DNA from: a virus
Lineage: Duplodnaviria > Heunggongvirae > Uroviricota > Caudoviricetes
Virus record (IMG/VR): IMGVR_UViG_3300031998_000037
Length of the DNA stretch: 64,000 bases
Reading direction: 5' to 3' (one strand)
Shown here: piece by piece, positions 4,319-62,904 of the stretch
Position numbering within the stretch: the first letter of the stretch is position 1
How the letters are laid out: each line of letters starts with the position of its first letter
The notes under the pieces: generated by a model
The model's database searches: none
Told to the model about the DNA's origin: nothing
What the model saw: only the letters and a program-made list of their open reading frames with translations
Made by a program: the position numbers and the translations under genes

Positions 4319-5453
4319 TTGTGATAATGCTGCACAAAAGCCTTTAACCGAATCAGTAAAGCGAACCATAGTTAACTTTATTGATAATGAATTTGGCAAT
4401 CCTTCATCTATATATTCTAAAGGGCGCAACGCTAAACGTGCTCTTGAAGAAGCAAGAAGTCAGATTGCAGAATCAATAGGGGCTGACACAGACGAAATTT
4501 ATTTTACAAGTGGTAGCACCGAGGCAATCAACTGGCTTTATCATTCAACCAACAAACATATTCTGATTTCACCTATAGAGCACAAAGCTATTCTAAAAGG
4601 GAATGAAAATTATGATGGTATCTCTTACGGTTTGGACGTTAAACAAAATGGCGTTATAGATATTGAAAAACTTAAATATCTTTGTAATTGGGTACATGAC
4701 GATGGGGTTGCTATCATAGGTTGGGTAAATAATGAGATCGGTACAATTCAGCCTATAAAAGAAATAGCTAATATTTGCCACGCAAAAGGCGTTGAACTAT
4801 TCGTTGATGCTTCACAAGCTATCGGGCATATACCAATTAATGTGCATGAAATCGGGATGGATTATATGTGCGGTTCATTTCAGAAAATAGGCGGTTTGGC
4901 TGGTAGCGGTTTCCTTTATATAAAAAAAGGCAAAGGGTTCAATCCTATGTTATCTGGCGGATCACAAGAACGCGGCATGAGAGCTGGGACTGAAAACCTT
5001 TTAGGGGTAATGTGTGGTGCAACCGCGATATCCGAAGCAACTAAAAATCTAAGTGATAAAGTCTCCAGACAAAAAGAAATTCAAAGCAAAATTATCTCTG
5101 AACTTCTGAAACTCCCCAAAACACATTTGAATGGCGACTTATGTAATAGAGTTGCAAGCAATGTGAATATATGCTTTGAGGGTATTGAGGCTGAAAGTCT
5201 TGTGCTTCTGCTTGATTTAGATAATATTTGTGTTAGCAGTGGCTCTGCCTGTAACTCAGGTGATGTTAAGCCCAGCCATGTTTTGAAGGCGATAGGTCTT
5301 AGTGATGATAATGCTAAAGCAAGTATACGTATCACCTTTGATGACATGACGGATGATGAAATTGATTATCTTGTAGAGCGAATAAAGGCAAGAGTTAGTC
5401 AGTTAAGAGATATGTCCCCTAAATGGAAGGAGATATTCAATGCAAGTAATTGA
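4308..5453 (+). CDS. cysteine desulfurase (IscS/NifS family, class V aminotransferase)
   Basis: aligns along its whole length with IscS as recalled from memory: 'FTSGSTEAINW', 'NNEIGTIQPI', PLP lysine in 'SFQKIGG', 'SGGSQERGMRAGTEN', catalytic Cys in 'SSGSACNSGDVKPSHVLKAIGL', 'SIRITFDD..EIDYLVERI'. Confidence 0.8.
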   Translation: MQINCDNAAQKPLTESVKRTIVNFIDNEFGNPSSIYSKGRNAKRALEEARSQIAESIGADTDEIYFTSGSTEAINWLYHSTNKHILISPIEHKAILKGNENYDGISYGLDVKQNGVIDIEKLKYLCNWVHDDGVAIIGWVNNEIGTIQPIKEIANICHAKGVELFVDASQAIGHIPINVHEIGMDYMCGSFQKIGGLAGSGFLYIKKGKGFNPMLSGGSQERGMRAGTENLLGVMCGATAISEATKNLSDKVSRQKEIQSKIISELLKLPKTHLNGDLCNRVASNVNICFEGIEAESLVLLLDLDNICVSSGSACNSGDVKPSHVLKAIGLSDDNAKASIRITFDDMTDDEIDYLVERIKARVSQLRDMSPKWKEIFNASN

Positions 5454-16699: not shown

Positions 16700-16971
16700 A
16701 GTTTCGCAAAAGGTTCTCCAAATTTCCTCAAATATGAATTTGGTGCAACTTTGGTGCAACTCTTGACAAACCGCTTTCCCCGTACTATAATATACATAAG
16801 GTCACAGGTTTGTCGGACTTCTGTGACTGTCAAGCCACTTGCAAATGTAGTAACCAACTGCGTTTGCATAAAGGAACCCCAAGAGATCACGGCTCTTGGG
16901 GTTTTATCTATAACTCATAATAATACAAAAGTCAACTAATTTATTAGCCATAGCTTTCATTTTTTTGGCTT

Positions 16972-16984
16972 AGGAACTCAGTTC
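16972..16984. promoter_or_regulatory. GGAACTCAGTTCC palindromic motif (copy 3), at the convergent junction between the + module and rep
   Basis: exact match, flanked by TTTTTTT and AATTCAAAAATTTT. Confidence 0.6.
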
Positions 16985-16988
16985 CAAT

Positions 16989-18062
16989 TCAAAAATTTTC
17001 TCTTTGTTTATCACGTTCAGCCTTTAACATAGCCCTAAAATAACTGTAACGGTTAGCGATATTTTGCTGTTCAGATATAGCATTAAAGTGAGTATATTGT
17101 TCCTGTAAATAATGATACCTTGCAAACCCAATGCCAAGAGGATGTTCAGGCATATCCGTAGAAAATACAATTGCAAGCAGACTTTCCATTTCTTTTACTG
17201 AAAATTCATTATTACAAGCACCTGAGAAAAAGTCAAGTTCAACATCTTGTGTCTCTATTTCTTCTTTAATCTTGTCAACATCAATTAAATCTGAAAATCC
17301 CTCAAAGATAGGAATTTGTTTTTGAGCTGGTTCATTTTTAGTGATAGTAAACACAATAGATATCCACCTACCACCTGCACCTGTCTTGCCGCGCTCATAG
17401 GTATAGCTAATGTCTGTAAGTTCCTTTAAAGCCTTTTGACAGCTATCGAGTACATACTTTTTAAATAAAGACCAACCATTTTTATTTGAATATTCAGTTT
17501 CGGCAATACCGAGCAATTCTCTAAGTTCTTTTACAGGTATCTCTCTCTTCCCTATATTCTCGTATTGTTTTAAAATTTCATACATTCTAATTTGATTTGC
17601 TGATTTAAGGATCAGTGCATTCCAAAGTTCGTACTTAAAATATCTCTCTTTAAAATCAAACATTAAAGGCAATGCTTTATCGTGGGCATCTATCTGAACA
17701 TACCATTCGCCGTCCTCATTCTTATCAACTTCACATTCTTTAAAAAGCTGAAATCCAGAATATCCGCCACTCTCTTTTGGTATATTGACAACCTTACAAA
17801 GTAAGCTATTAGTGCTTGATTTAAGTTGCTGAATATTCATTCTACTAAACCCCATGATCTTCTGGAAGTCAGACAGTGGGAATCGAACAATTCTTGTTGA
17901 CTCATCTCTGGGGTTTATCTTAGATAGATAAATCGAAAAAAAGCGTAACTCTTGTAAGGATAGATTATTGGCTCTAATCTCGTTAAGGATATTTCTTTTT
18001 TCTACTATAGCTCCCTCATAAATAGTAGACATATATATCACCTCAATATTATTATAACACAC
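16989..18062 (-). CDS. rep: plasmid-type replication initiator (RepA_N-like)
   Basis: 357 aa whose N-terminal region resembles Firmicute theta-plasmid RepA_N; iterons lie immediately upstream. Confidence 0.6.
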   Translation of the reverse strand: MCYNNIEVIYMSTIYEGAIVEKRNILNEIRANNLSLQELRFFSIYLSKINPRDESTRIVRFPLSDFQKIMGFSRMNIQQLKSSTNSLLCKVVNIPKESGGYSGFQLFKECEVDKNEDGEWYVQIDAHDKALPLMFDFKERYFKYELWNALILKSANQIRMYEILKQYENIGKREIPVKELRELLGIAETEYSNKNGWSLFKKYVLDSCQKALKELTDISYTYERGKTGAGGRWISIVFTITKNEPAQKQIPIFEGFSDLIDVDKIKEEIETQDVELDFFSGACNNEFSVKEMESLLAIVFSTDMPEHPLGIGFARYHYLQEQYTHFNAISEQQNIANRYSYFRAMLKAERDKQRENF

Positions 18063-18063
18063 A

Positions 18064-18215
18064 TTCTATAGATTGTCAATGCTATCTATAGTATTATGCA
18101 ATGAAATCTATAGAATCGTGCAATACAATCTATAGTATCTTGCAATGAAATCTATAGAATTGTGCAATACAATCTATAGAATTGTGCAATACAATCTATA
18201 GAATCGATTCCGCAA
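18064..18215. repeat. iteron array: ~7 tandem 22-bp repeats (consensus AATCTATAGAATYGTGCAATAC)
   Basis: counted by eye at 22-bp periodicity, directly upstream of rep; 2 further copies at 18411-18448. Confidence 0.8.
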
Positions 18216-18410
18216 AGGTGCTATTTTAGGTCGTTTACGATAACCGAAAATATATATAAAATAAATAAAATACTTCTAAAACATCTTTCAAACTATCATG
18301 GAGCAAAAACTGATATTAATTTAAGACTTAAAGAAATAAAATTGGCAAAACAACCAAAACATAAATATAAAATTCATTATCAAACGAATTATAAAGTACA
18401 ATTCAATCAT
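18216..18410. other. AT-rich spacer between iteron groups (putative DNA unwinding element/origin)
   Basis: extreme AT content between the two iteron sets. Confidence 0.5.
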
Positions 18411-18448
18411 CTATAGAATTGTGCAATCAAATCTATAGAATTGAAAAT
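18411..18448. repeat. two additional iterons (ATCTATAGAATTG...)
   Basis: same repeat family as 18064-18215. Confidence 0.7.
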
Positions 18449-18652
18449 TAATGTCCGTAATTTAGAAAATCAATGTCCGTAATTAAAACTTTATGTTAAA
18501 ATTAAATGGCATTATTTGATGACTAAATTTGTCTTTTGCAGATAAATGTCCTATTTTATTATACGCAAAATAGGCAAGAAAAACACTTTGCAGAAATCTG
18601 TCCTATTTAGAAAATCAATGTCCGTAATTAAGAAAATTTATGTCCGTAATTA
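18447..18652. repeat. parS-like repeats: 4 copies of ATGTCCGTAATTA plus 2 degenerate TGTCCTATTT copies, downstream of parB
   Basis: copies at 18447, 18469, 18617 and 18639; the pairs are spaced 22 bp apart. Confidence 0.6.
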
Positions 18653-18664
18653 ATCTTGTTTAAC

Positions 18665-19867
18665 TTACGAGCAATGATTATTCCTATAACTATCCATCAA
18701 TTCCTGAATAGTTTTAAGTTCCTCAGCAGGGTTCATATCCAGCAATCTTTTGATTGCGGTATCAACGGCTTGAACTTCCTTGATAATCTTTTTGCTTTGA
18801 GCGATCTTGCCAGACTTATCCTTCTGAGCATCGTCAAGTCCCTTTTCGGCAGAGAAGATAGTATTCGTAAATATCTTCTTTACCTCACTATTTTGCTTTT
18901 GAGTTTTGAGATCAATGTCGCGGTCAAGCTGTTCAAGAGCTGCATTGTACTTAGCAACACTCTTTTCAATACTTGCCTTACGGGATTCAAGCTCAGGCGA
19001 TTGTTCTATATCAAGCTCCTTGTTGATATTTGCAAGCTCCTCATTTGCTTGTAAAAGCCTTCCATTATAATACATACGCGAGGTTTTATCTTTTGAAAGA
19101 GAAGTGTTTGTCTTTGAAATAATATTCTTAGCCTGTTTTGCAAAAGCGAGTGTGTGCTCGATAGCATATTTCTTAGTCTCAGGATCAGCGTTGTCCGCAG
19201 CCTTTAGAATATCATTGGCATAGTTCTGATATTCTTCTGGGAGCTGCGCAAGTGAAGCAGCCGTGTTGATATCAATAGCATCCGCATAGAGCAATTCCTT
19301 TAAAGGATTGATAAGCTCAGACGTAATGGCGATAAGCTTATTAGCCTGACGTTCACTGACATTAAAAGCCTGTGAAACATACTCTTTAAATTTTTGAGCC
19401 GCCTCTCGTTCAGCGGTTTCATCAAACTGCTTTATCTTAGCGAGAAAGCCTTCAATGATTTGAACCTTTTCTTCAATGCTATATTCTCTTGTTTCACTAT
19501 TGGCAAAGAAAAGCATTTTGAGAATTTCGAGCTGAGAAAGATTGCTTCTTACAGTCGCCTTAATCTTATCGCGTCCGAGGTACTTGACAGCCTTTGTGCG
19601 GCGTTCTCCAGATATGAGCAAGTATTTCGTAGGCTCTATCTTTGCAACCACAATATTATGCAGCAAGCCGTTCTCTTTGATATTCTCAGCAAGTTCTGCA
19701 ATGCCCTCGTCAGAGTCGCCCATATTGAAAATGTTATCCTGATTAAAAACGATTTGATCTATGGGGATAATATCAGTTGTCTCGATAGACTCCTGTTCCT
19801 TTTTGACGCTATCAGCAAGCTCATTAAAGCGGCTCAACGCCTTGTCGGTGTTTAACTTCTTAGCCAT
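18665..19867 (-). CDS. parB: ParB-family partition protein
   Basis: N-terminal ParB/Srx-like box ending in 'GERRTKA'; long helical C-terminus; translationally coupled to parA. Confidence 0.7.
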   Translation of the reverse strand: MAKKLNTDKALSRFNELADSVKKEQESIETTDIIPIDQIVFNQDNIFNMGDSDEGIAELAENIKENGLLHNIVVAKIEPTKYLLISGERRTKAVKYLGRDKIKATVRSNLSQLEILKMLFFANSETREYSIEEKVQIIEGFLAKIKQFDETAEREAAQKFKEYVSQAFNVSERQANKLIAITSELINPLKELLYADAIDINTAASLAQLPEEYQNYANDILKAADNADPETKKYAIEHTLAFAKQAKNIISKTNTSLSKDKTSRMYYNGRLLQANEELANINKELDIEQSPELESRKASIEKSVAKYNAALEQLDRDIDLKTQKQNSEVKKIFTNTIFSAEKGLDDAQKDKSGKIAQSKKIIKEVQAVDTAIKRLLDMNPAEELKTIQELMDSYRNNHCS

Positions 19868-20664
19868 TAATTAACGCCCCCTAAAATGATATTTTCAAGC
19901 TCCTCAGCGACAGCCAGATAATCAGCCGTGACTTTTTCATTCTTGGCATAATTTATCAATGGGTTGTGATCCGTAAGGCTCTTCTCTACAATGGTCGTCT
20001 TTCTGATCTCGGTATTAAAGAAATGGTATGATGTAAGATTAGCCTTGAATTGTTCAAGGTAAAAGTTCTGAGCTGCCGTGTTCTCCTTCTTTGTAAAAAG
20101 CAGCCCAGCGATTTTGAGATTTGGGTTGACATATTGCTGAATGTTTGTGATAAATTCATTCATGGCGAAGATACTGTCAATGCCGTACTCAGTCGCCTCG
20201 CAAGGCAGCACGGTATAGTTACTTGCTGTGAGGGCGTTTGTGGTTAAATTATTACGTGCAGGTGGGCAGTCGATAAAAACATATTCATATTCATCCTGTA
20301 TCTCTGTAAGCTTATTCTTTAAAATAAACTCTCTTGCTATTGGCAAAGCTGATAATTCAGTATCAGCCTTATCCAGATTGACGTTAGACGGCAGCAAATC
20401 AAGCCCGTCAATGTCAGTACCTATGGTAGCTTTACGGACGCTTAAATCGCCACATATGACATTGTAGACGCTTACCTCGTCTTTGCTGAGAAACTTTCCG
20501 AGGTAAGTTGTGGCATTTGCTTGCGGATCAAGGTCAACAAGTAGCACCTTTTTGTTTTTAATTTTAGCAAATATTGCAGCAAGGTTTACACTCGCCGTGG
20601 TTTTGCCAGCACCACCTTTACGGTTCAATAAAGAAATCGTAATCATTAATTTTGCTCCTTTCAC
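19867..20664 (-). CDS. parA: ParA/Soj-family partition ATPase
   Basis: deviant Walker A 'NRKGGAGKTT', 'VLLVDLDPQ'. Confidence 0.85.
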   Translation of the reverse strand: MKGAKLMITISLLNRKGGAGKTTASVNLAAIFAKIKNKKVLLVDLDPQANATTYLGKFLSKDEVSVYNVICGDLSVRKATIGTDIDGLDLLPSNVNLDKADTELSALPIAREFILKNKLTEIQDEYEYVFIDCPPARNNLTTNALTASNYTVLPCEATEYGIDSIFAMNEFITNIQQYVNPNLKIAGLLFTKKENTAAQNFYLEQFKANLTSYHFFNTEIRKTTIVEKSLTDHNPLINYAKNEKVTADYLAVAEELENIILGGVN

Positions 20665-20739
20665 TGTTTGAGTGTTTGACTGTTTGCTTCTTTCATTATA
20701 TCACACTTTATTTTAAAATGCAAGAGTTTTTTTGAAAAA

Positions 20740-20824
20740 GGAACTCAGTTCCTAAGCCAAAATTTTTTTGAAAAAGGAACTCAGTTCCCAGAGCAAAATT
20801 TTTTTGAGAAAAGAACTCAGTTCC
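20740..20824. promoter_or_regulatory. three tandem copies of the palindromic motif (GGAACTCAGTTCC x2, AGAACTCAGTTCC x1), each between T- and A-runs; upstream of parAB and downstream of the lysis genes
   Basis: copies at 20740, 20776 and 20812, ~36 bp apart. Confidence 0.65.
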
Positions 20825-20880
20825 TAAGCCAAAAAAATAGGGTACAGCAAGTCCATAATAAGACCTGTTGTACCCTAAGT

Positions 20881-21237
20881 TTACTTAGCAAGTGCAAGTA
20901 TGACCGCACCTGCAATACCAGTGGCGACCATAGTAACTACCGCCGTAATTGCAGCTATTTTTATCTTTTTAAAGTTTGCGAGTGTTTCTTGTGCTGGAGC
21001 GTTTTCAAGTTCAGACACTTTTCTTGAAAGTGACTTTTGATTTTCCTTAACCTCAACCACATCGTTCTCAACGTGCTTTAGCGACTGAGCCATCAAGGAT
21101 AAGCTTTTACTTATATCGTAGAGAGCTTCTTGTCTGTGTTCAATATCATTTACTCGCACGGCAAGATTATCAATTGACTTGCCATGCGACAATACATTCG
21201 CTTTTACTTCATAAAATTCCTTGTCAGATATTGGCAT
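20881..21237 (-). CDS. coiled-coil protein with C-terminal transmembrane helix
   Basis: hydrophobic C-terminus 'IAAITAVVTMVATGIAGAVILALAK'. Confidence 0.35.
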   Translation of the reverse strand: MPISDKEFYEVKANVLSHGKSIDNLAVRVNDIEHRQEALYDISKSLSLMAQSLKHVENDVVEVKENQKSLSRKVSELENAPAQETLANFKKIKIAAITAVVTMVATGIAGAVILALAK

Positions 21238-54706: not shown

Positions 54707-54934
54707 AATTCAAAAAAAACGGTGTAGGGGTTCGCACACCGCAAAGCGAAAATTGTATCATTCGCTCATGCCCACGTACTTTGCATACGTTTAGACGTAA
54801 ATCGGGGTTATGAGCTATACAGCAGTTTTATGTCCTCTGCAAGACATGGTGACGATTGCGAGACTTGAACTCAGCATTGCGCCCGTGAAAGGGGCGTGTC
54901 CTACCTTTAGACGAAACCGCCACAATAATGCGCA

Positions 54935-54956
54935 CGTTTGCATTGTCCTGCAAACG
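54935..54956. repeat. inverted repeat CGTTTGCA-N6-TGCAAACG, flanked by direct repeats ATAATGCGCA (54925-54934 and 54959-54968)
   Basis: seen in sequence. Confidence 0.6.
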
Positions 54957-54986
54957 GTATAATGCGCATTGTTGCAAGCCGAAAAT

Positions 54987-55020
54987 CAAAGTATCGTTTG
55001 TGCGCACAAACGATACTTTG
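54987..55020. repeat. 34-bp perfect palindrome CAAAGTATCGTTTGTGC|GCACAAACGATACTTTG
   Basis: seen in sequence; both halves are exact reverse complements. Confidence 0.85.
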
Positions 55021-55284
55021 CAAGAGGTGCTTACAAAGCTCTTTTCATGGTTATTAAAGTAAACCTCAATAACCTTTCAACAATATCTTCCTTGAACTGG
55101 CAAGGACACCAATCTAAATGCTCGTAAAGAGCTGAGTATTAAAGACCTTGCGTGGGACACTTCTACGAGAGGTGTGCAAGGTTCTTCTCAGTGAGCTTTT
55201 TTATTTTTATAAGGACGTGGCTCTACGTCCTTATCTTCTGAGAAAACATAGCTTTTGCAATATAACGTGTTCGATGTTATACTA

Positions 55285-55358
55285 TTGGTTGCAGCTCTTA
55301 GAATCGAACTAAGAACATAAGGGTATGAACCTTATATGATACCATTTCACCAAACTGC
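55285..55358 (-). tRNA. tRNA-Met/fMet-like (anticodon CAT) with a C1-A72 mismatch
   Basis: manual fold: acceptor CGCAGTT/AGCTGCA, D-arm GTGA-AATGGTA-TCAT, anticodon arm TAAGG-TTCATAC-CCTTA, 4-nt variable loop, T-arm CTTAG-TTCGATT-CTAAG, then ACCA. Confidence 0.6.
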
Positions 55359-55416
55359 GGCATGACAGGTTAGTTATAGTCCAACCTTCACGAATGACTT
55401 CTCCCGTCAGGAGGAG

Positions 55417-55492
55417 TGGTGTCAAAAGCAGGGGTTGAACCTGCGACCTTCGCCTTATCAAGACGCTGCTCTGCCAACTGAGCTATTCTGAC
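55417..55492 (-). tRNA. tRNA-Ile (anticodon GAT)
   Basis: manual fold: acceptor GTCAGAA/TTTTGAC, D-arm GCTC-AGTTGGCA-GAGC, anticodon loop TTGATAA, T-arm GCAGG-TTCAACC-CCTGC, then ACCA; 76 nt. Confidence 0.75.
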
Positions 55493-60264: not shown

Positions 60265-62904
60265 TTAAATGTTTTCGGTTGCAATCATTTGGCTTCTTCT
60301 AATTCTGTTTCCTTGAACATTGTATTTTATTCTGTATTTTCTTTGACATTCAGCACACCTGCACTTGCCATTAACCTTGTTTATTTCTACGCCACAATCG
60401 ACACACACATACCCATACTTGGGTTTGTTTGCCAGAATGTTCTCATAAACAATATCCCCATAAACGTTAAAAAAGAACTCTTTAAATCTTCTGTCCTTAA
60501 AAACCGTATGCTCTTTAAACATATCCTTTACCAGCATATCACAAATCTCATACTGAGCATAGTCAAGCTTCTGCATCGCCACAATGATCTCACTGATAGC
60601 AGGGGAGTTATAATTCTCTTCCTTGCCTATTTTCAGTTTAACCTTTGATACCACATCACTATATGCCTTTAAAACAGTCTCGTCAACTTCAATGTCGGGA
60701 TTGTTCATCAACATTCTATAATCAAAGCGTTTCCTGTCCTCAAAAGTAAGTTTGAAGTCTGATTCAGGATAAAGCTTATATATGCGATTTACGATACAAT
60801 CATTTACAGGCTCAACCTGATCCGCCGTCTTATCCTTTGCATAAACAAAGAAGGCTGGCAGTTTTTTGTTGACATACTTTGATATAAGTTCCTTAATATC
60901 ATTTGGCGGAACAGACTTATATAATGTCTTAGCATAATCAATGACCTCATTATTTACCATACATAGATACTTCAAACAATCCATAGCCTCTTGCTTAGTG
61001 TCGGGATTTATTATCTCGGTACTATTTTTTATCTTGCTGATATTGTTTGAAACAATACCTATATTGCCGCCCGTGAACGCATTTGATAGTCCGCGATATC
61101 TACTGTCCGCCGTAATAGCTTCTTTTGCAGCCTTACGCATATTGTAATATAGCGGCACAACTCCGACCTGATTACGCTTGGCAAGATCAATTATATTTTG
61201 ATCCTGTATAATTAAAGTCTTATCTCCGTCAACATCATACATGAGGATTTTACTTATAACATCATGCGTACTTGCATAGCAGCCGTCAGTAATAAACCAT
61301 CTTTCAAGTTCCTGACTTGTGACGTTGTTGCGTATAGCGTGTTCAAAGTAGAGGTGTGGACTACGCAGACAATCAACCTCTTTGCCAAATTCATGTAACC
61401 TACAATAAACCTCACCGTCAGCAAGGAGTCCCGTAGGTACTTTATCCCCCAAAAAGAGCCATTGACAAAAAGCGTAATAGTCTGGCAGCAAGAATGTATA
61501 ATAGCCGTTAACTCTGAACTTTGCTGAATATAAATCCTTGACCGATTTTTTATAGAAGTCTTTTAGCTGCTCTCTGAAATAACTATCCTTTAACAGACCA
61601 TTGTATTCTATGAGGCATTTCTGCATACCATTATATTTACTCTTGGGCTTATTTGGCTTAATCCCAAAAGTTTCAAGCTGTACATTTTTATCTGAGCAGA
61701 TGCCGTTAATAAAATTCACGCTATCCGAGCACATCTGTTTAAGCTCCGCGTCTTTGTAATCAATGAAGCTCTGGAGCATCTGATAGTTCAGATGAGACTT
61801 TTTGAAATAGTCCTCCTCCACATTACACGTTCCAGCACAGCAGCCGTTTTTCTTAAAGCGTTCCTTATAGTCGTCCCAACTATCAAAGTAGGCATACATT
61901 TTGAGCTGACTTTTTGTAAAGATGATTTGAATATTATCCTCGAATATATCCCATTCTTTGCCCCATATATCTTTTATTTTAGAGGAACAACCATACTCAC
62001 GCACAAAGCCTTTAAAGTCAAATACACCAAGTAATCCCTTTGTCCACGGCATACGTACCATGAAATTCTTTTTGCTCAGTTCAGGGCTTATCATACCTGC
62101 GCCGTCTGTATGAGGAATAGTAACGGGCATAGTCTGACGAGTAATGCTATAGTCTCTGTCATCTACATAGTCAACCTCGGTCACAACATTTGTCTCAAAG
62201 TCATCAACCACTATGCACCGATCTATGTCAAAGTCTTTCCATTCTTCGGTTGCAGAGTTGCAAAGAGCCAGATATGCATTATATTTATTTAGGTTCATAC
62301 CGCCCTTTGCGTTTACCTCATCAACTGTAAGACCACAGGTAAGCTTGCCCCAACACTTGTCTAATAAATCCTCACGCACAAACACAGCCTTCTTAGTTCG
62401 GATTTGACCAGCACTACTTGCAAAATATACATAACGACAGCCATTGTGACAAAAGCCTTTGTGTATAAGATTTTCAAGCACTTCAAAGTAAAAGACCGAA
62501 ACAACCATCATTTGTTCATTTACTGTAGTATTCTCGGCTGTTTGTCGCACGTTCAGATTTAACGGGATCATATCAAGGCTACGAGTAAGCTCACTGCTGA
62601 ATACGGATATTCTGCTGCGCTCAGTAAGTTTTCTTTCATTAATGTGCCTGTATCGTTGCATATTGCCCTTCATCATTGAAAGAAGAGTTTCTTTTAAAGA
62701 AGTAAGTTCCTTAGAGACAGCCTTATATTTTTCTTCTATAACGAAACTTACAGCCGCACTCATTCCATTATCTTTTAAGATAGCCTTATATGCTGACTTT
62801 AAGCCGCGAAGCGTATACATCTTACGCTCGACCTCGCGCTCATCATCAAAGTAGAAAGCCGAAGTATCAATCCCATAAATGCAATATTGTTTATCTAACG
62901 CCAA
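60265..62904 (-). CDS. large hypothetical protein (879 aa) with C-terminal Cys4 zinc ribbon; no P-loop or polymerase motif recognised
   Basis: 'CVDCGVEINKVNGKCRCAEC' at the C-terminus. Confidence 0.35.
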   Translation of the reverse strand: MALDKQYCIYGIDTSAFYFDDEREVERKMYTLRGLKSAYKAILKDNGMSAAVSFVIEEKYKAVSKELTSLKETLLSMMKGNMQRYRHINERKLTERSRISVFSSELTRSLDMIPLNLNVRQTAENTTVNEQMMVVSVFYFEVLENLIHKGFCHNGCRYVYFASSAGQIRTKKAVFVREDLLDKCWGKLTCGLTVDEVNAKGGMNLNKYNAYLALCNSATEEWKDFDIDRCIVVDDFETNVVTEVDYVDDRDYSITRQTMPVTIPHTDGAGMISPELSKKNFMVRMPWTKGLLGVFDFKGFVREYGCSSKIKDIWGKEWDIFEDNIQIIFTKSQLKMYAYFDSWDDYKERFKKNGCCAGTCNVEEDYFKKSHLNYQMLQSFIDYKDAELKQMCSDSVNFINGICSDKNVQLETFGIKPNKPKSKYNGMQKCLIEYNGLLKDSYFREQLKDFYKKSVKDLYSAKFRVNGYYTFLLPDYYAFCQWLFLGDKVPTGLLADGEVYCRLHEFGKEVDCLRSPHLYFEHAIRNNVTSQELERWFITDGCYASTHDVISKILMYDVDGDKTLIIQDQNIIDLAKRNQVGVVPLYYNMRKAAKEAITADSRYRGLSNAFTGGNIGIVSNNISKIKNSTEIINPDTKQEAMDCLKYLCMVNNEVIDYAKTLYKSVPPNDIKELISKYVNKKLPAFFVYAKDKTADQVEPVNDCIVNRIYKLYPESDFKLTFEDRKRFDYRMLMNNPDIEVDETVLKAYSDVVSKVKLKIGKEENYNSPAISEIIVAMQKLDYAQYEICDMLVKDMFKEHTVFKDRRFKEFFFNVYGDIVYENILANKPKYGYVCVDCGVEINKVNGKCRCAECQRKYRIKYNVQGNRIRRSQMIATENI

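What the first reader, a model, noticed from the sequence alone, without database searches (positions are those of the whole stretch)
18064..18448. Iteron architecture: 7 + 2 copies of a 22-bp repeat flanking an AT-rich spacer
AATCTATAGAATYGTGCAATAC recurs at exact 22-bp phasing (about two helical turns) directly upstream of rep. Two more copies lie ~200 bp away across an A/T-rich stretch. This is the classic origin/auto-repression layout of iteron plasmids.
Basis: seen in the sequence. Interest (0 to 1): 0.55.

Follow-up and report, generated by a model that had tools for sequence, protein, structure and literature searches.

The report
Iteron replication origin of a phage-plasmid
The repeats are the binding sites of a plasmid-type replication origin and its self-repressing promoter; this is a textbook design, found here in the plasmid-maintenance module of a large uncultured gut or rumen phage.

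Summary
The window has nine CTATAG-core repeats: seven at 18063-18204 and two at 18398-18441. They lie directly upstream of a Rep_3 (WH1+WH2) initiator gene on the minus strand.

The reading as an iteron origin with auto-repression is supported, with four refinements:
- Five copies are full 22-bp direct iterons.
- The sixth carries the -35 box of a perfect sigma-70 promoter. The "seventh" is an inverted half-site, 20 bp away rather than 22. Together they form an inverted-repeat operator around the -35 box.
- Part of the "AT-rich spacer" (18205-18300) is an unwinding-element block conserved across 21 related origins, although their iterons differ completely.
- The second distal copy is only a half-site.

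In relatives the iteron sequence changes together at the array, the operator and the distal pair. It follows Rep, not ParB.

The host element is a tailed phage carrying parAB and rep, so it is a phage-plasmid. It belongs to a 55-150 kb family linked to Ruminococcus/Oscillospiraceae that is absent from curated phage and plasmid collections. Its rep/ori module has been swapped between siblings.

Next to the origin (18442-18652) lie six iteron-like repeats of the types used by sibling phage-plasmids. They are either relics of module exchange or incompatibility decoys.

Verdict: a new member of a known kind, of modest interest.

The parts
16989..18032 (-). rep: 347-aa Rep_3-family initiator (WH1 + WH2 plus a C-terminal helical extension of about 85 aa). 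It starts at the ATG at 18032, preceded by GAGGTG.
   Evidence: Pfam Rep3_N 2.1e-23 and Rep3_C 1.1e-7. PHROG 4402, replication initiation protein. Profile match to RepE 1rep/2z9o at E = 6-8e-4. AlphaFold model with pLDDT 73, whose Foldseek top hits are RepE, pi and RctB. It is the only Rep_3 ORF in the window.
18051..18079 (-). rep promoter: -35 TTGACA (18079-18074), a 17-nt spacer, and an extended -10 TGTTATAAT (-10 hexamer at 18056-18051).
   Evidence: It is the only 12/12 consensus match in 16800-20900 and has TG before the -10. The sequence was read directly.
18063..18073 (+). Inverted iteron half-site inside the promoter spacer (reads ATTCTATAGAT on the + strand). With I6 it forms an inverted repeat with 11-nt arms and a 10-nt spacer that holds the -35 box. 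This is the putative operator for Rep dimers.
   Evidence: It matches the iteron 5' half 11/11 and appears as inverted repeats I4, I5 and I9-I11. The same arrangement is seen in L004, L007 and L010 with their own iteron sequences. An inverted own-iteron 10-mer with at most 1 mismatch occurs in 10/20 loci, against 44/380 cross-locus controls.
18073..18094 (-). Iteron I6: the 5' half is intact and the 3' half is replaced by the -35 box. It is the second arm of the operator.
   Evidence: ATACTATAGATAGCATTGACAA, 16/22 to consensus.
18095..18204 (-). Five contiguous full 22-bp direct iterons, I5-I1 (consensus ATTCTATAGATTGTATTGCACA). These are the putative binding sites for Rep monomers.
   Evidence: 18-22/22 identity with exact 22-bp phasing. 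Enrichment is 6 observed against 0.08 expected. Arrays of 21-22 bp lie upstream of rep in 21 of 26 related loci.
18205..18300 (-). Conserved origin block next to the iterons. It holds degenerate AT-rich repeats of about 12 nt, then TTTTCGGTTATCGTAAACGACC...GCGGAATC. It is the putative DNA unwinding element plus a possible host-factor site.
   Evidence: It aligns across 21 origins whose iterons differ. nhmmer recovers it in relatives at E down to 2e-13. Repeats of 11-12 nt are detected here in most relatives. The core is 19.6% GC.
18301..18397 (.). AT-rich spacer (20% GC) that is not conserved.
   Evidence: Composition. It does not align between lineages.
18398..18441 (-). Distal iteron pair in the same orientation as the array: D1 (18441-18420, 20/22) and D2 (18419-18398, 5' half only). 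These are putative copy-control or looping sites.
   Evidence: Distal pairs of each replicon's own iteron type occur in L004, L007, L010 and L012. An exact 14-mer distal copy is found in 7/20 loci, against 4/380 controls.
18442..18652 (-). Six heterologous iteron-like 22-bp repeats. Type B is TAATTACGGACATTGATTTTCT, four copies: 18652-18631, 18630-18609, 18485-18464 and 18463-18442. Type B' is AAATAGGACAKWTTTCTGCAAA, two copies: 18608-18587 and 18556-18535. They are relics of a replaced origin or decoy sites, and probably not part of the working origin.
   Evidence: Type B is 19/22 identical to the L023 iteron and 18/22 to the L035 iteron. It matches the iteron arrays of siblings L050 and L052 by blastn (E down to 5e-11). 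Type B' is 18/20 identical to the L049 iterons by my reading.
18665..19867 (-). parB (400 aa, ParB_N domain).
   Evidence: Pfam ParB_N 4e-12. PHROG 4715.
19867..20646 (-). parA (259 aa, Walker-type partition ATPase).
   Evidence: Pfam AAA_31 5e-50 and CbiA. PHROG 164. Start codon read.
20727..20834 (.). Three 36-bp tandem repeats upstream of the parA promoter, each holding the palindrome GGAACTCAGTTCC. These are the candidate centromere or par operator.
   Evidence: GAACTNAGTTC occurs 7 times in the window against 0.02 expected. The same palindrome lies upstream of parA in all four sibling loci, whatever their iteron type.

Best explanation
The region is the plasmid-mode (theta-type) replication origin and control region of a phage-plasmid.

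**Shown by sequence.**
- A Rep_3 initiator gene (16989-18032, minus strand) is preceded by a consensus promoter.
- An inverted repeat of two iteron half-sites brackets the -35 box of that promoter.
- Five full 22-bp direct iterons follow.
- Next comes an AT-rich block that is conserved across the Rep clade.
- About 200 bp further on lies a distal iteron plus a half-iteron.

**Inferred by analogy with pPS10 RepA, F RepE and R6K pi.**
- Rep monomers bind the five or six direct iterons cooperatively, one every two helical turns.
- They bend the DNA and melt the adjacent unwinding element at 18205-18300. The host helicase and replisome then load there.
- Rep dimers bind the inverted repeat across the -35 box and repress rep.
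- The distal pair supplies extra Rep sites across the unwinding element. These could limit copy number by looping in cis, by handcuffing in trans, or by titrating Rep.

The neighbouring parAB genes partition the prophage-plasmid. Their probable centromere is the GGAACTCAGTTCC repeats upstream of parA, not the iterons.
For: **Repeats are real and non-random.**

**Rep identity.** Pfam domains, a profile match to RepE, and fold matches to RepE-operator (2z9o), RepE-iteron (1rep), Rep-DUE ssDNA (8ac8) and pi-iteron (2nra).

**Promoter and operator.** A perfect promoter whose -35 box lies between two half-sites.

**Comparative evidence.**
- Rep relatives at 60-72% identity (L004, L007, L010, L012, L014, L017) keep the order distal sites, conserved AT-rich block, 2-6 tandem 22-bp iterons, TTGACA, inverted half-site, TATAAT, rep. 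Their iteron sequences are unrelated to one another.
- 21 of 26 related loci have a 21-22-bp array within about 300 nt of rep.
- Each locus's own iteron recurs inverted in the promoter and direct at the distal site far more often than iterons of other loci do.

**The repeats follow Rep, not ParB.** Sibling L049 has ParA 89% and ParB 71% identical, but Rep only 20% identical and entirely different repeats. Small plasmid-like contigs without parAB have the same layout.

**Published model.** Rep dimers at the operator, Rep monomers at the iterons, and handcuffing are described for pPS10 (PMC4857107). The roles of the unwinding element and its 13-mers are reviewed in PMC4980987.
Against: - No binding, unwinding or origin-mapping data exist for this element or for any member of its Rep clade. 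The closest Rep in curated plasmid or phage records is under 35% identical.
- No DnaA box within 1 mismatch lies in 17900-18800. Host-initiator involvement, common in Gram-negative iteron plasmids, is therefore unsupported.
- The -10 box is only 6 nt from the Shine-Dalgarno sequence, so the leader would be unusually short (about 12 nt).
- The 12-mer periodicity of the unwinding element is degenerate in this window. It is clear only by alignment with relatives.
- The distal pair is not universal in the clade: 7/20 loci, not all of them independent.
- Whether this origin also serves lytic replication of the phage is unknown.
Confidence: 0.85

Rival explanations
1. The repeats are only a transcriptional operator array that auto-regulates rep. 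Replication starts elsewhere, for example at a separate phage lytic origin, and this region has no origin function.
For: The operator and promoter overlap is the best-defined feature. No DnaA box was found. The phage is large and may carry other replication functions outside the window. An exonuclease, NrdD and dUTPase are present.
Against: Five additional full direct iterons are not needed for repression. A conserved AT-rich block with 11-12-nt repeats abuts the iterons in 21 origins. The same module occurs on 4-18-kb plasmid-like contigs where rep is the only replication-initiator gene among the genes called around it. Known Rep_3 initiators fire at their iterons (PMC4980987, PMC4857107).
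Confidence: 0.06
2. The 22-bp repeats are the partition centromere (parS or sopC-like) bound by the adjacent ParB, not Rep-binding iterons.
For: They lie downstream of parAB on the same strand, as sopC does in plasmid F and parS does in P1 (my own knowledge). They are tandem repeats.
Against: The repeats follow Rep, not ParB. L049 has ParA 89% and ParB 71% identical but unrelated repeats and a Rep only 20% identical. Contigs without parAB carry the same architecture. A separate conserved palindrome, GAACTNAGTTC, sits upstream of parA in the window and all four siblings. It occurs 7 times in the window against 0.02 expected.
Confidence: 0.03
3. This rival concerns only the neighbouring type B and B' repeats (18442-18652). 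They would be functional parts of this origin, acting as low-affinity sites for the resident Rep that set copy number. The working control region would then be larger than the first reader drew it.
For: They share the family-wide iteron frame (AATT-6N-A-TT..ATT..C) and the same orientation as the type A copies. They directly abut the distal pair. The four B copies are 19-22/22 identical to each other. P1 incA, F incC and RK2 carry auxiliary iteron clusters (my own knowledge).
Against: They differ from type A at the six core positions that are repeated in the operator half-site (ACGGAC against CTATAG) and are only 12/22 identical overall. They match the iterons of sibling replicons much better: 19/22, and blastn E = 5e-11. 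The B4-to-D1 spacing is 20 bp rather than 22. One copy is missing in L001 and L002 with no other change.
Confidence: 0.15

Closest known systems
pPS10 (Pseudomonas) RepA / oriV
   Same: It has a Rep_3-type WH1-WH2 initiator and contiguous 22-bp direct iterons next to an AT-rich region. The rep promoter carries an inverted-repeat operator that shares half of the iteron. Dimers repress, monomers initiate, and handcuffing limits copy number (PMC4857107).
   Different: pPS10 has four iterons and a DnaA box, and no distal pair (my own knowledge). Here there are five full iterons plus one hybrid, a distal pair across the unwinding element, and no DnaA box. Sequence similarity to solved Rep_3 proteins is detectable only with a profile. 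This Rep has an extra C-terminal helical domain of about 85 aa. The host is a Firmicute and the replicon is a phage.
Mini-F RepE / ori2 (incB and incC iterons)
   Same: It is the best structural match: 2z9o is the RepE dimer on its operator and 1rep is the monomer on an iteron. Iterons lie upstream of rep, the operator is an inverted repeat of half-iterons overlapping the promoter, and a second iteron cluster controls copy number (my own knowledge). Partition genes are adjacent.
   Different: F iterons are 19 bp, and its second cluster (incC) lies downstream of repE (my own knowledge). Sequence identity is about 15-18%.
Prophage P1 oriR (repA with incC and incA iterons, then parAB-parS)
   Same: P1 is a phage-plasmid maintained by an iteron origin with auto-repressed rep, an auxiliary iteron cluster and an adjacent parAB (my own knowledge; phage-plasmids are reviewed in PMC7969092).
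   Different: P1 RepA is not close in sequence, its iterons are 19 bp, and it has DnaA boxes and GATC sites (my own knowledge). No GATC and no DnaA box occur here. The phage backbone is unrelated: the best portal matches are Brevibacillus and Bacillus siphoviruses at about 28-31% identity.
RK2 oriV (clusters of 5 + 3 + 1 iterons, unwinding element with 13-mers)
   Same: A main iteron cluster next to an unwinding element made of short repeats, plus extra iterons that act in copy control (PMC4980987 for the unwinding element and iterons; the split into clusters is my own knowledge).
   Different: RK2 has 17-bp iterons, a TrfA initiator of different sequence, and DnaA boxes.
Lactococcal and enterococcal theta replicons of the pCI305 / pUCL287 type
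   Same: They are Firmicute Rep_3 replicons with 22-bp iterons (typically 3.5 copies) downstream of an AT-rich region, and with inverted repeats at the repB promoter (my own knowledge; 22-bp iterons in such plasmids are mentioned in PMC3387028 and PMC3138775, which I listed but did not read in detail).
   Different: No PLSDB plasmid Rep exceeds about 35% identity to this Rep. This clade is known only from metagenomes and MAGs of Ruminococcus, Oscillospiraceae and other Clostridia.

Membership tests
Iteron-type theta replicon with a Rep_3 (WH1-WH2) initiator | The initiator has Rep3_N (WH1) and Rep3_C (WH2) domains and the RepE/pi fold. | tested here: met
   Pfam 2.1e-23 and 1.1e-7, both above the curated cut-offs. 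Profile match to RepE at 6e-4. Foldseek matches to RepE, pi and RctB at probability 1.0 and target TM-score about 0.5.
Iteron-type theta replicon with a Rep_3 (WH1-WH2) initiator | Tandem direct repeats of about 17-22 bp next to rep, phased at whole helical turns. | tested here: met
   Five full units and one hybrid unit at exact 22-bp spacing, 18073-18204. 6 matches against 0.08 expected.
Iteron-type theta replicon with a Rep_3 (WH1-WH2) initiator | An AT-rich DNA unwinding element flanks the iterons. | tested here: met
   18205-18300 has a core of 19.6% GC. It aligns across 21 origins and carries 11-12-nt repeats in relatives. Actual unwinding was not testable.
Iteron-type theta replicon with a Rep_3 (WH1-WH2) initiator | An inverted repeat of iteron half-sites overlaps the rep promoter (auto-repression operator). 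| tested here: met
   The arms are the 5' half of I6 and 18063-18073 (10/11 complementary), and the 10-nt spacer holds the -35 TTGACA. The arrangement recurs in relatives.
Iteron-type theta replicon with a Rep_3 (WH1-WH2) initiator | Iteron sequence co-varies with the Rep lineage (cognate specificity). | tested here: met
   Different iteron sequences go with different Reps in one common register. Matches to a locus's own iteron exceed cross-locus matches. The repeats change with Rep, not with ParA or ParB.
Iteron-type theta replicon with a Rep_3 (WH1-WH2) initiator | DnaA box or boxes in the origin (frequent but not universal). | tested here: not met
   No TTATCCACA within 1 mismatch in 17900-18800. 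Only two 2-mismatch sites exist, both inside the type B region.
Iteron-type theta replicon with a Rep_3 (WH1-WH2) initiator | Rep binds the iterons, and the fragment supports Rep-dependent autonomous replication. | not testable with these tools
   This needs EMSA or footprinting and a replication assay.
Phage-plasmid | One replicon carries virion, packaging and lysis genes together with plasmid replication and partition genes. | tested here: met
   Terminase, portal, a 2007-aa tape measure protein, a tail protein and an M23 endolysin, plus rep, parA and parB. The same synteny is found on 55-150-kb contigs.
Phage-plasmid | Extrachromosomal maintenance: no integration module, and a circular or linear plasmid prophage. 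| tested here: inconclusive
   No integrase appeared among the roughly 30 ORFs scanned. The scan was not exhaustive, and the window covers about 64 kb of a genome of about 100 kb or more.
ParABS centromere | The repeats follow the ParB lineage and are shared by ParB relatives. | tested here: not met
   ParB relatives at 58-71% identity have different 22-bp repeats but share the GAACTNAGTTC palindrome upstream of parA.
CRISPR array | Repeats are separated by unique spacers of similar length. | tested here: not met
   The units are contiguous with no spacers. No Rfam family reaches its threshold in 17900-18800.
pCI305/pUCL287-type lactic-acid-bacteria theta replicons | The Rep protein clusters with the RepB proteins of those plasmids. 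| tested here: inconclusive
   The best PLSDB matches are 27-35% identical and come from Mediterraneibacter, Clostridium, Bacillus and Priestia plasmids. No direct comparison with pCI305 RepB was made.

The most novel reading that the evidence does not exclude
The six heterologous repeats at 18442-18652 are not debris. They would be decoy iterons, that is, binding sites for the initiators of the two sibling phage-plasmid replicon types (L050/L052-type ATTACGGAC and L049-type AAATGGAACA). Those siblings co-occur in the same samples. By titrating or handcuffing a rival's Rep, the resident element would block a superinfecting or co-resident sibling from establishing or maintaining itself as a plasmid. 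This would be superinfection exclusion by incompatibility. The resident's own type A Rep and iterons would be unaffected.
Probability: 0.2. Interest if true: 0.7.

Novelty: new member of a known kind. Interest (0 to 1): 0.36.

Why it matters
As an origin, this is textbook biology: its layout matches pPS10, F and P1. Its value lies in the context.

- It marks the plasmid-maintenance module of an uncultured family of 55-150-kb phage-plasmids linked to Ruminococcus/Oscillospiraceae from gut and rumen samples. That family has no counterpart in curated phage or plasmid collections.
- It defines a compact rep-ori cassette of about 1.5 kb (16989-18441). The cassette could serve as a shuttle-vector replicon for Clostridia that are hard to manipulate genetically.
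- The comparative set gives about 20 natural Rep/iteron specificity pairs in one common register. These could be used to study how WH-domain initiators read DNA.
- Siblings have exchanged the rep-ori module while keeping parAB and the phage genes. This element also retains iteron-like sites of its siblings' types. Together these facts make replicon incompatibility between related phage-plasmids directly testable.

Tried and rejected
- **Nucleotide similarity.** blastn in distant mode with 16900-20700 against INPHARED phages and PLSDB plasmids gave no match.
- **IMG/VR.** Rep and ParB searches found no relatives. The type B pattern gave only two single, unrelated hits there, which I did not follow.
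- **Solved structures.** phmmer with the single Rep sequence against PDB gave nothing at E < 0.01. Only the family profile and the fold search reached RepE.
- **Structured RNA or CRISPR.** Rejected, because only sub-threshold microRNA noise appeared.
- **Second rep gene.** I looked for one that might own the type B repeats. None exists in the window.
- **Type B as centromere.** Rejected, because the siblings use these sequences as the iterons of their own origins, and a different conserved palindrome marks parA.
- **DnaA boxes and GATC sites in the origin.** None found.
- **GTG at 18062 as the rep start.** Rejected, because it lies inside the promoter spacer. The ATG at 18032 has a Shine-Dalgarno sequence, and relatives start at the equivalent position.
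- **Which winged-helix domain reads the variable half of the iteron.** The Rep alignment was uninformative: WH2 is the more conserved domain overall.
- **Divergence between the window and L001/L002.** At 97% column identity it is too low to distinguish constraint on type B copies from neutrality.
Full report
**1. The observation**

Reading 17500-20200 shows the repeat family directly. CTATAG cores lie at 18066, 18086, 18108, 18130, 18152, 18174 and 18196, and again at 18411 and 18433.

- Tandem Repeats Finder reports a 22-bp period with 6.6 copies (score 183) at 18061-18204, and 1.9 copies at 18404-18443.
- The 19-mer core with up to 3 mismatches occurs six times, only here. Shuffles give 0.08 on average, and none of 100 reached six.
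- The interval between the two groups is 19-22% GC, against 37.7% for the window.

So [quoted passage not shown] is correct.

Laid out in register on the minus strand, which is the strand of rep:
- I1-I5 (18204-18095) are full units, 18-22/22 identical to ATTCTATAGATTGTATTGCACA.
- I6 (18094-18073) keeps the 5' half, but its 3' half is ...TTGACA.
- The last "copy" (18063-18073) is an inverted 11-nt half-site, 20 bp rather than 22 bp from I6.
- Distal D1 (18441-18420) is 20/22.
- Distal D2 (18419-18398) keeps only the 5' half.

**2. What is next to it**

- The ORF at 16989-18032 (minus strand) starts at the ATG at 18032, which lies 6 nt after GAGGTG. It encodes a 347-aa protein with Pfam Rep3_N (WH1, 2e-23) and Rep3_C (WH2, 1e-7).
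- A profile of 24 family members reaches RepE of plasmid F in the PDB (E = 6e-4).
- An AlphaFold model (pLDDT 73) has as its top 47 Foldseek matches RepE (dimer on operator 2z9o, monomer on iteron 1rep, Rep with DUE ssDNA 8ac8), pi of R6K (2nra) and RctB.
- The only 12/12 sigma-70 match in the neighbourhood is on the minus strand: TTGACA (18079-18074), 17 nt, TGnTATAAT (-10 at 18056-18051).
- The -35 box lies in the 10-nt spacer between the 5' half of I6 and the inverted half-site. The two half-sites therefore form an inverted repeat centred on the -35 box. This is the arrangement described for the repA operator of pPS10 and the repE operator of F (PMC4857107; PDB 2z9o title).
- On the same strand upstream lie parA (19867-20646) and parB (18665-19867).

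**3. Context: a phage-plasmid**

The window encodes the following:
- virion and packaging genes: large terminase, portal, a 2007-aa tape measure protein and a tail protein;
- lysis genes: an M23 endolysin and an XhlA-like protein;
- nucleotide metabolism genes: NrdD and dUTPase;
- DNA methylases and an exonuclease.

It is therefore a tailed-phage genome carrying a plasmid replication and partition module.

- A 99%-identical Rep lies on contigs of 66-106 kb with the same gene order.
- ParB relatives at 58-71% identity lie on 55-150-kb contigs with conserved synteny: endolysin, XhlA-like, parA, parB, ori, rep, HNH, dUTPase.
- Rep relatives in GTDB genomes are mostly from Ruminococcus, Oscillospiraceae or other Clostridia MAGs and isolates, for example R. 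flavefaciens YAD2003.
- Curated collections hold nothing close. There is no nucleotide match, the best Rep identity is under 35%, and the best portal matches are at 28-31% to Brevibacillus and Bacillus siphoviruses.

**4. Comparative test of the iteron reading**

I took the DNA upstream of rep from 25 related loci.

*(a) Arrays are the rule.* A 21-22-bp tandem array of 2-6.6 copies lies within about 300 nt of rep in 21 of 26 loci, counting the window. L007 has two copies, found by another method.

*(b) The sequences differ but share one register*. Examples:
- ATTACTGTAACGTCATTTCTCA in L004
- ATTGAATACATTGCATTGCAAG in L007
- ATAGACTACTTTCATTTGCACG in L010
- ATTGACTACTTTTCATCCCTCA in L012
- ATTACGGAGATTGTATTTCTT in L023

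*(c) The whole layout recurs with each replicon's own iteron.*
- L004 reads AATTACTGTAAA-ctaccTTGACA-TTTACAGTAATT...TATAAT.
- L007 and L010 are analogous.
- L004, L007, L010 and L012 have a distal pair about 180-240 bp upstream.

*(d) Quantification*.
- An inverted 10-mer of a locus's own iteron, with at most 1 mismatch, lies between the array and rep in 10/20 loci. With iterons taken from other loci the figure is 44/380.
- An exact 14-mer distal copy occurs in 7/20 loci, against 4/380.
- The window and L001 are not independent, so these counts are indicative rather than formal tests.

*(e) A conserved block sits beside the first iteron.* All lineages share it even though their iterons differ (nhmmer). 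Its consensus is roughly TGATTGATAGATTGATTTAAAAG..GTGATTTAA..GTGATTTCGG..AAAC..CGGAATC. In most relatives the AT-rich part consists of 2.3-4.7 copies of an 11-12-nt unit. This resembles the 13-mers of the oriC and RK2 unwinding elements (PMC4980987). In the window this block is 18205-18300.

*(f) The repeats follow Rep, not ParB.*
- L049 has ParA 89%, ParB 71% and endolysin 71% identical, but Rep only 20% identical and unrelated repeats.
- L050, L051 and L052 have Rep 49-54% identical, with ParA 69-78% identical.
- The nearest Reps (68-72%) sit on small plasmid-like contigs that carry resolvase, toxin-antitoxin, NikA or MobA genes and no phage genes.

The rep-ori cassette is thus a mobile module that has been exchanged within this phage-plasmid family.

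**5. Mechanism**

Shown: the parts list above.

Inferred from the studied Rep_3 systems (PMC4857107, PMC4980987):
- Rep monomers occupy I1-I5 (and I6) on one face of the helix.
- They open the adjacent unwinding element, and the host helicase loads there.
- Rep dimers on the I6/inverted half-site repeat occlude the -35 box and repress rep.
- D1 and D2, on the far side of the unwinding element, could pair with the main array in cis or in trans (handcuffing), or could titrate Rep, to limit copy number.

No DnaA box or GATC site is present. If a host factor acts here, the semi-conserved TTTCGG..AAAC..CGGAATC segment is the candidate site.

I put the probability that this is a working Rep-dependent origin and operator at about 0.85.

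**6. Rivals**

- *Operator only.* This does not explain the five extra direct units, the conserved unwinding-element block, or the module's presence as the only initiator gene among the genes called on small plasmid-like contigs.
- *Centromere.* This is contradicted by point (f) above. It is also contradicted by a separate candidate centromere: three 36-bp repeats upstream of the parA promoter (20727-20834), each carrying GGAACTCAGTTCC. The same palindrome lies upstream of parA in all four siblings. It occurs seven times in the window against 0.02 expected.
- *CRISPR or RNA.* Both are excluded.

**7. An unexpected neighbour**

A second family of repeats lies between parB and the distal pair at 18442-18652, all in the same orientation as the type A units:
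- four copies of TAATTACGGACATTGATTTTCT (type B);
- two copies of AAATAGGACAKWTTTCTGCAAA (type B').

They fit the clade's iteron frame but are only 12/22 identical to type A.
- Type B is 19/22 identical to the iteron of L023 and 18/22 to that of L035.
- Type B matches the iteron arrays that siblings L050 and L052 use in their own origins, by blastn at 80-95% identity and E down to 5e-11.
- Type B' is 18/20 identical to the iteron of sibling L049 (read).
- There is no second rep gene in the window and no second unwinding-element block.
- The B4-to-D1 spacing is 20 bp, not 22.
- L001 and L002 lack one B copy.
- Some small plasmids also carry foreign-type iteron fragments upstream of their unwinding element. 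L014 has an L012-type distal pair, and L010 has L004-type fragments.

The simplest reading is that these are relics of rep-ori module replacement, perhaps by recombination in or near the conserved origin sequences (about 50%).

Alternatives:
- They are auxiliary sites for the resident Rep (about 15%).
- They are decoy sites for the initiators of sibling phage-plasmids (about 20%). L001, L051 and L052 come from the same sample, ERZ27256958. I found no paper describing such decoys, but those searches were narrow.

**8. Verdict**

- The feature is a new member of a known kind: a Rep_3 iteron origin with an inverted-repeat operator.
- What is new is the context: an uncharacterised Rep clade in a family of Ruminococcus-associated phage-plasmids, modular exchange of the replicon, and foreign-type iterons beside the origin.
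- Interest is modest (0.36). The decoy reading would raise it if shown.

Noticed in passing
window 18442-18652: Six iteron-like 22-bp repeats of two foreign types lie between parB and the origin: four copies of TAATTACGGACATTGATTTTCT and two of AAATAGGACAKWTTTCTGCAAA. They match the working iterons of sibling phage-plasmids (L050/L052 and L049) and of Ruminococcus plasmid-like contigs (L023, L035). They match the resident type A iterons poorly.
   Followed up: partly
window 20727-20834; also 1948, 16059, 16974, 54695: The palindrome GAACTNAGTTC occurs 7 times, against 0.02 expected. Three copies sit in 36-bp tandem repeats just upstream of the parA promoter, and the same palindrome precedes parA in all four sibling loci. 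It is a candidate parS or par operator, or the site of a phage repressor.
   Followed up: partly
window 16989-18441 compared with L049-L052: The rep-ori module is exchanged among otherwise syntenic phage-plasmids. L049 has ParA 89% and ParB 71% identical, but its Rep is only 20% identical (271 aa, a different Rep_3 lineage). The nearest Reps to the window's (68-72%) are on small plasmid-like contigs without phage genes.
   Followed up: yes
L014 upstream of rep (about 2560-2610); L010 (about 390-640); L004 (about 4555-4575): Small plasmid-like relatives also carry iteron fragments of another lineage's type upstream of their conserved unwinding-element block. This is what recombination inside that block would produce.
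   Followed up: partly
window 60265-62904 (-): An 879-aa protein matches Pfam PF05183 (RdRP, 1.7e-13) and PHROG 8308 (5e-230, unknown function). It is probably a YonO-like single-subunit RNA polymerase, as in SPbeta-type phages; that link is from my own knowledge.
   Followed up: no
window 54847-55492 (-): Three tRNA genes (Glu-TTC, Met-CAT, Ile-GAT) and an Rfam 6A sRNA motif (55186-55236; 48.7 bits against a 41.2-bit gathering score) lie in a stretch with few long ORFs between the terminase region and the exonuclease cluster.
   Followed up: no
window 18551-18575: An 8-bp inverted repeat, CCTATTTT-9 nt-AAAATAGG, lies between the two B' copies and overlaps one of them. It has no T-run, so it is not a typical terminator.
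   Followed up: no
window 16989-17250 (Rep residues about 262-345): Rep has a confidently predicted C-terminal helical extension of about 85 aa beyond WH1-WH2. RepE, pi and RepA lack it. A low-confidence linker at residues 236-262 joins it to WH2. It may be a host-replisome or helicase interaction domain.
   Followed up: no
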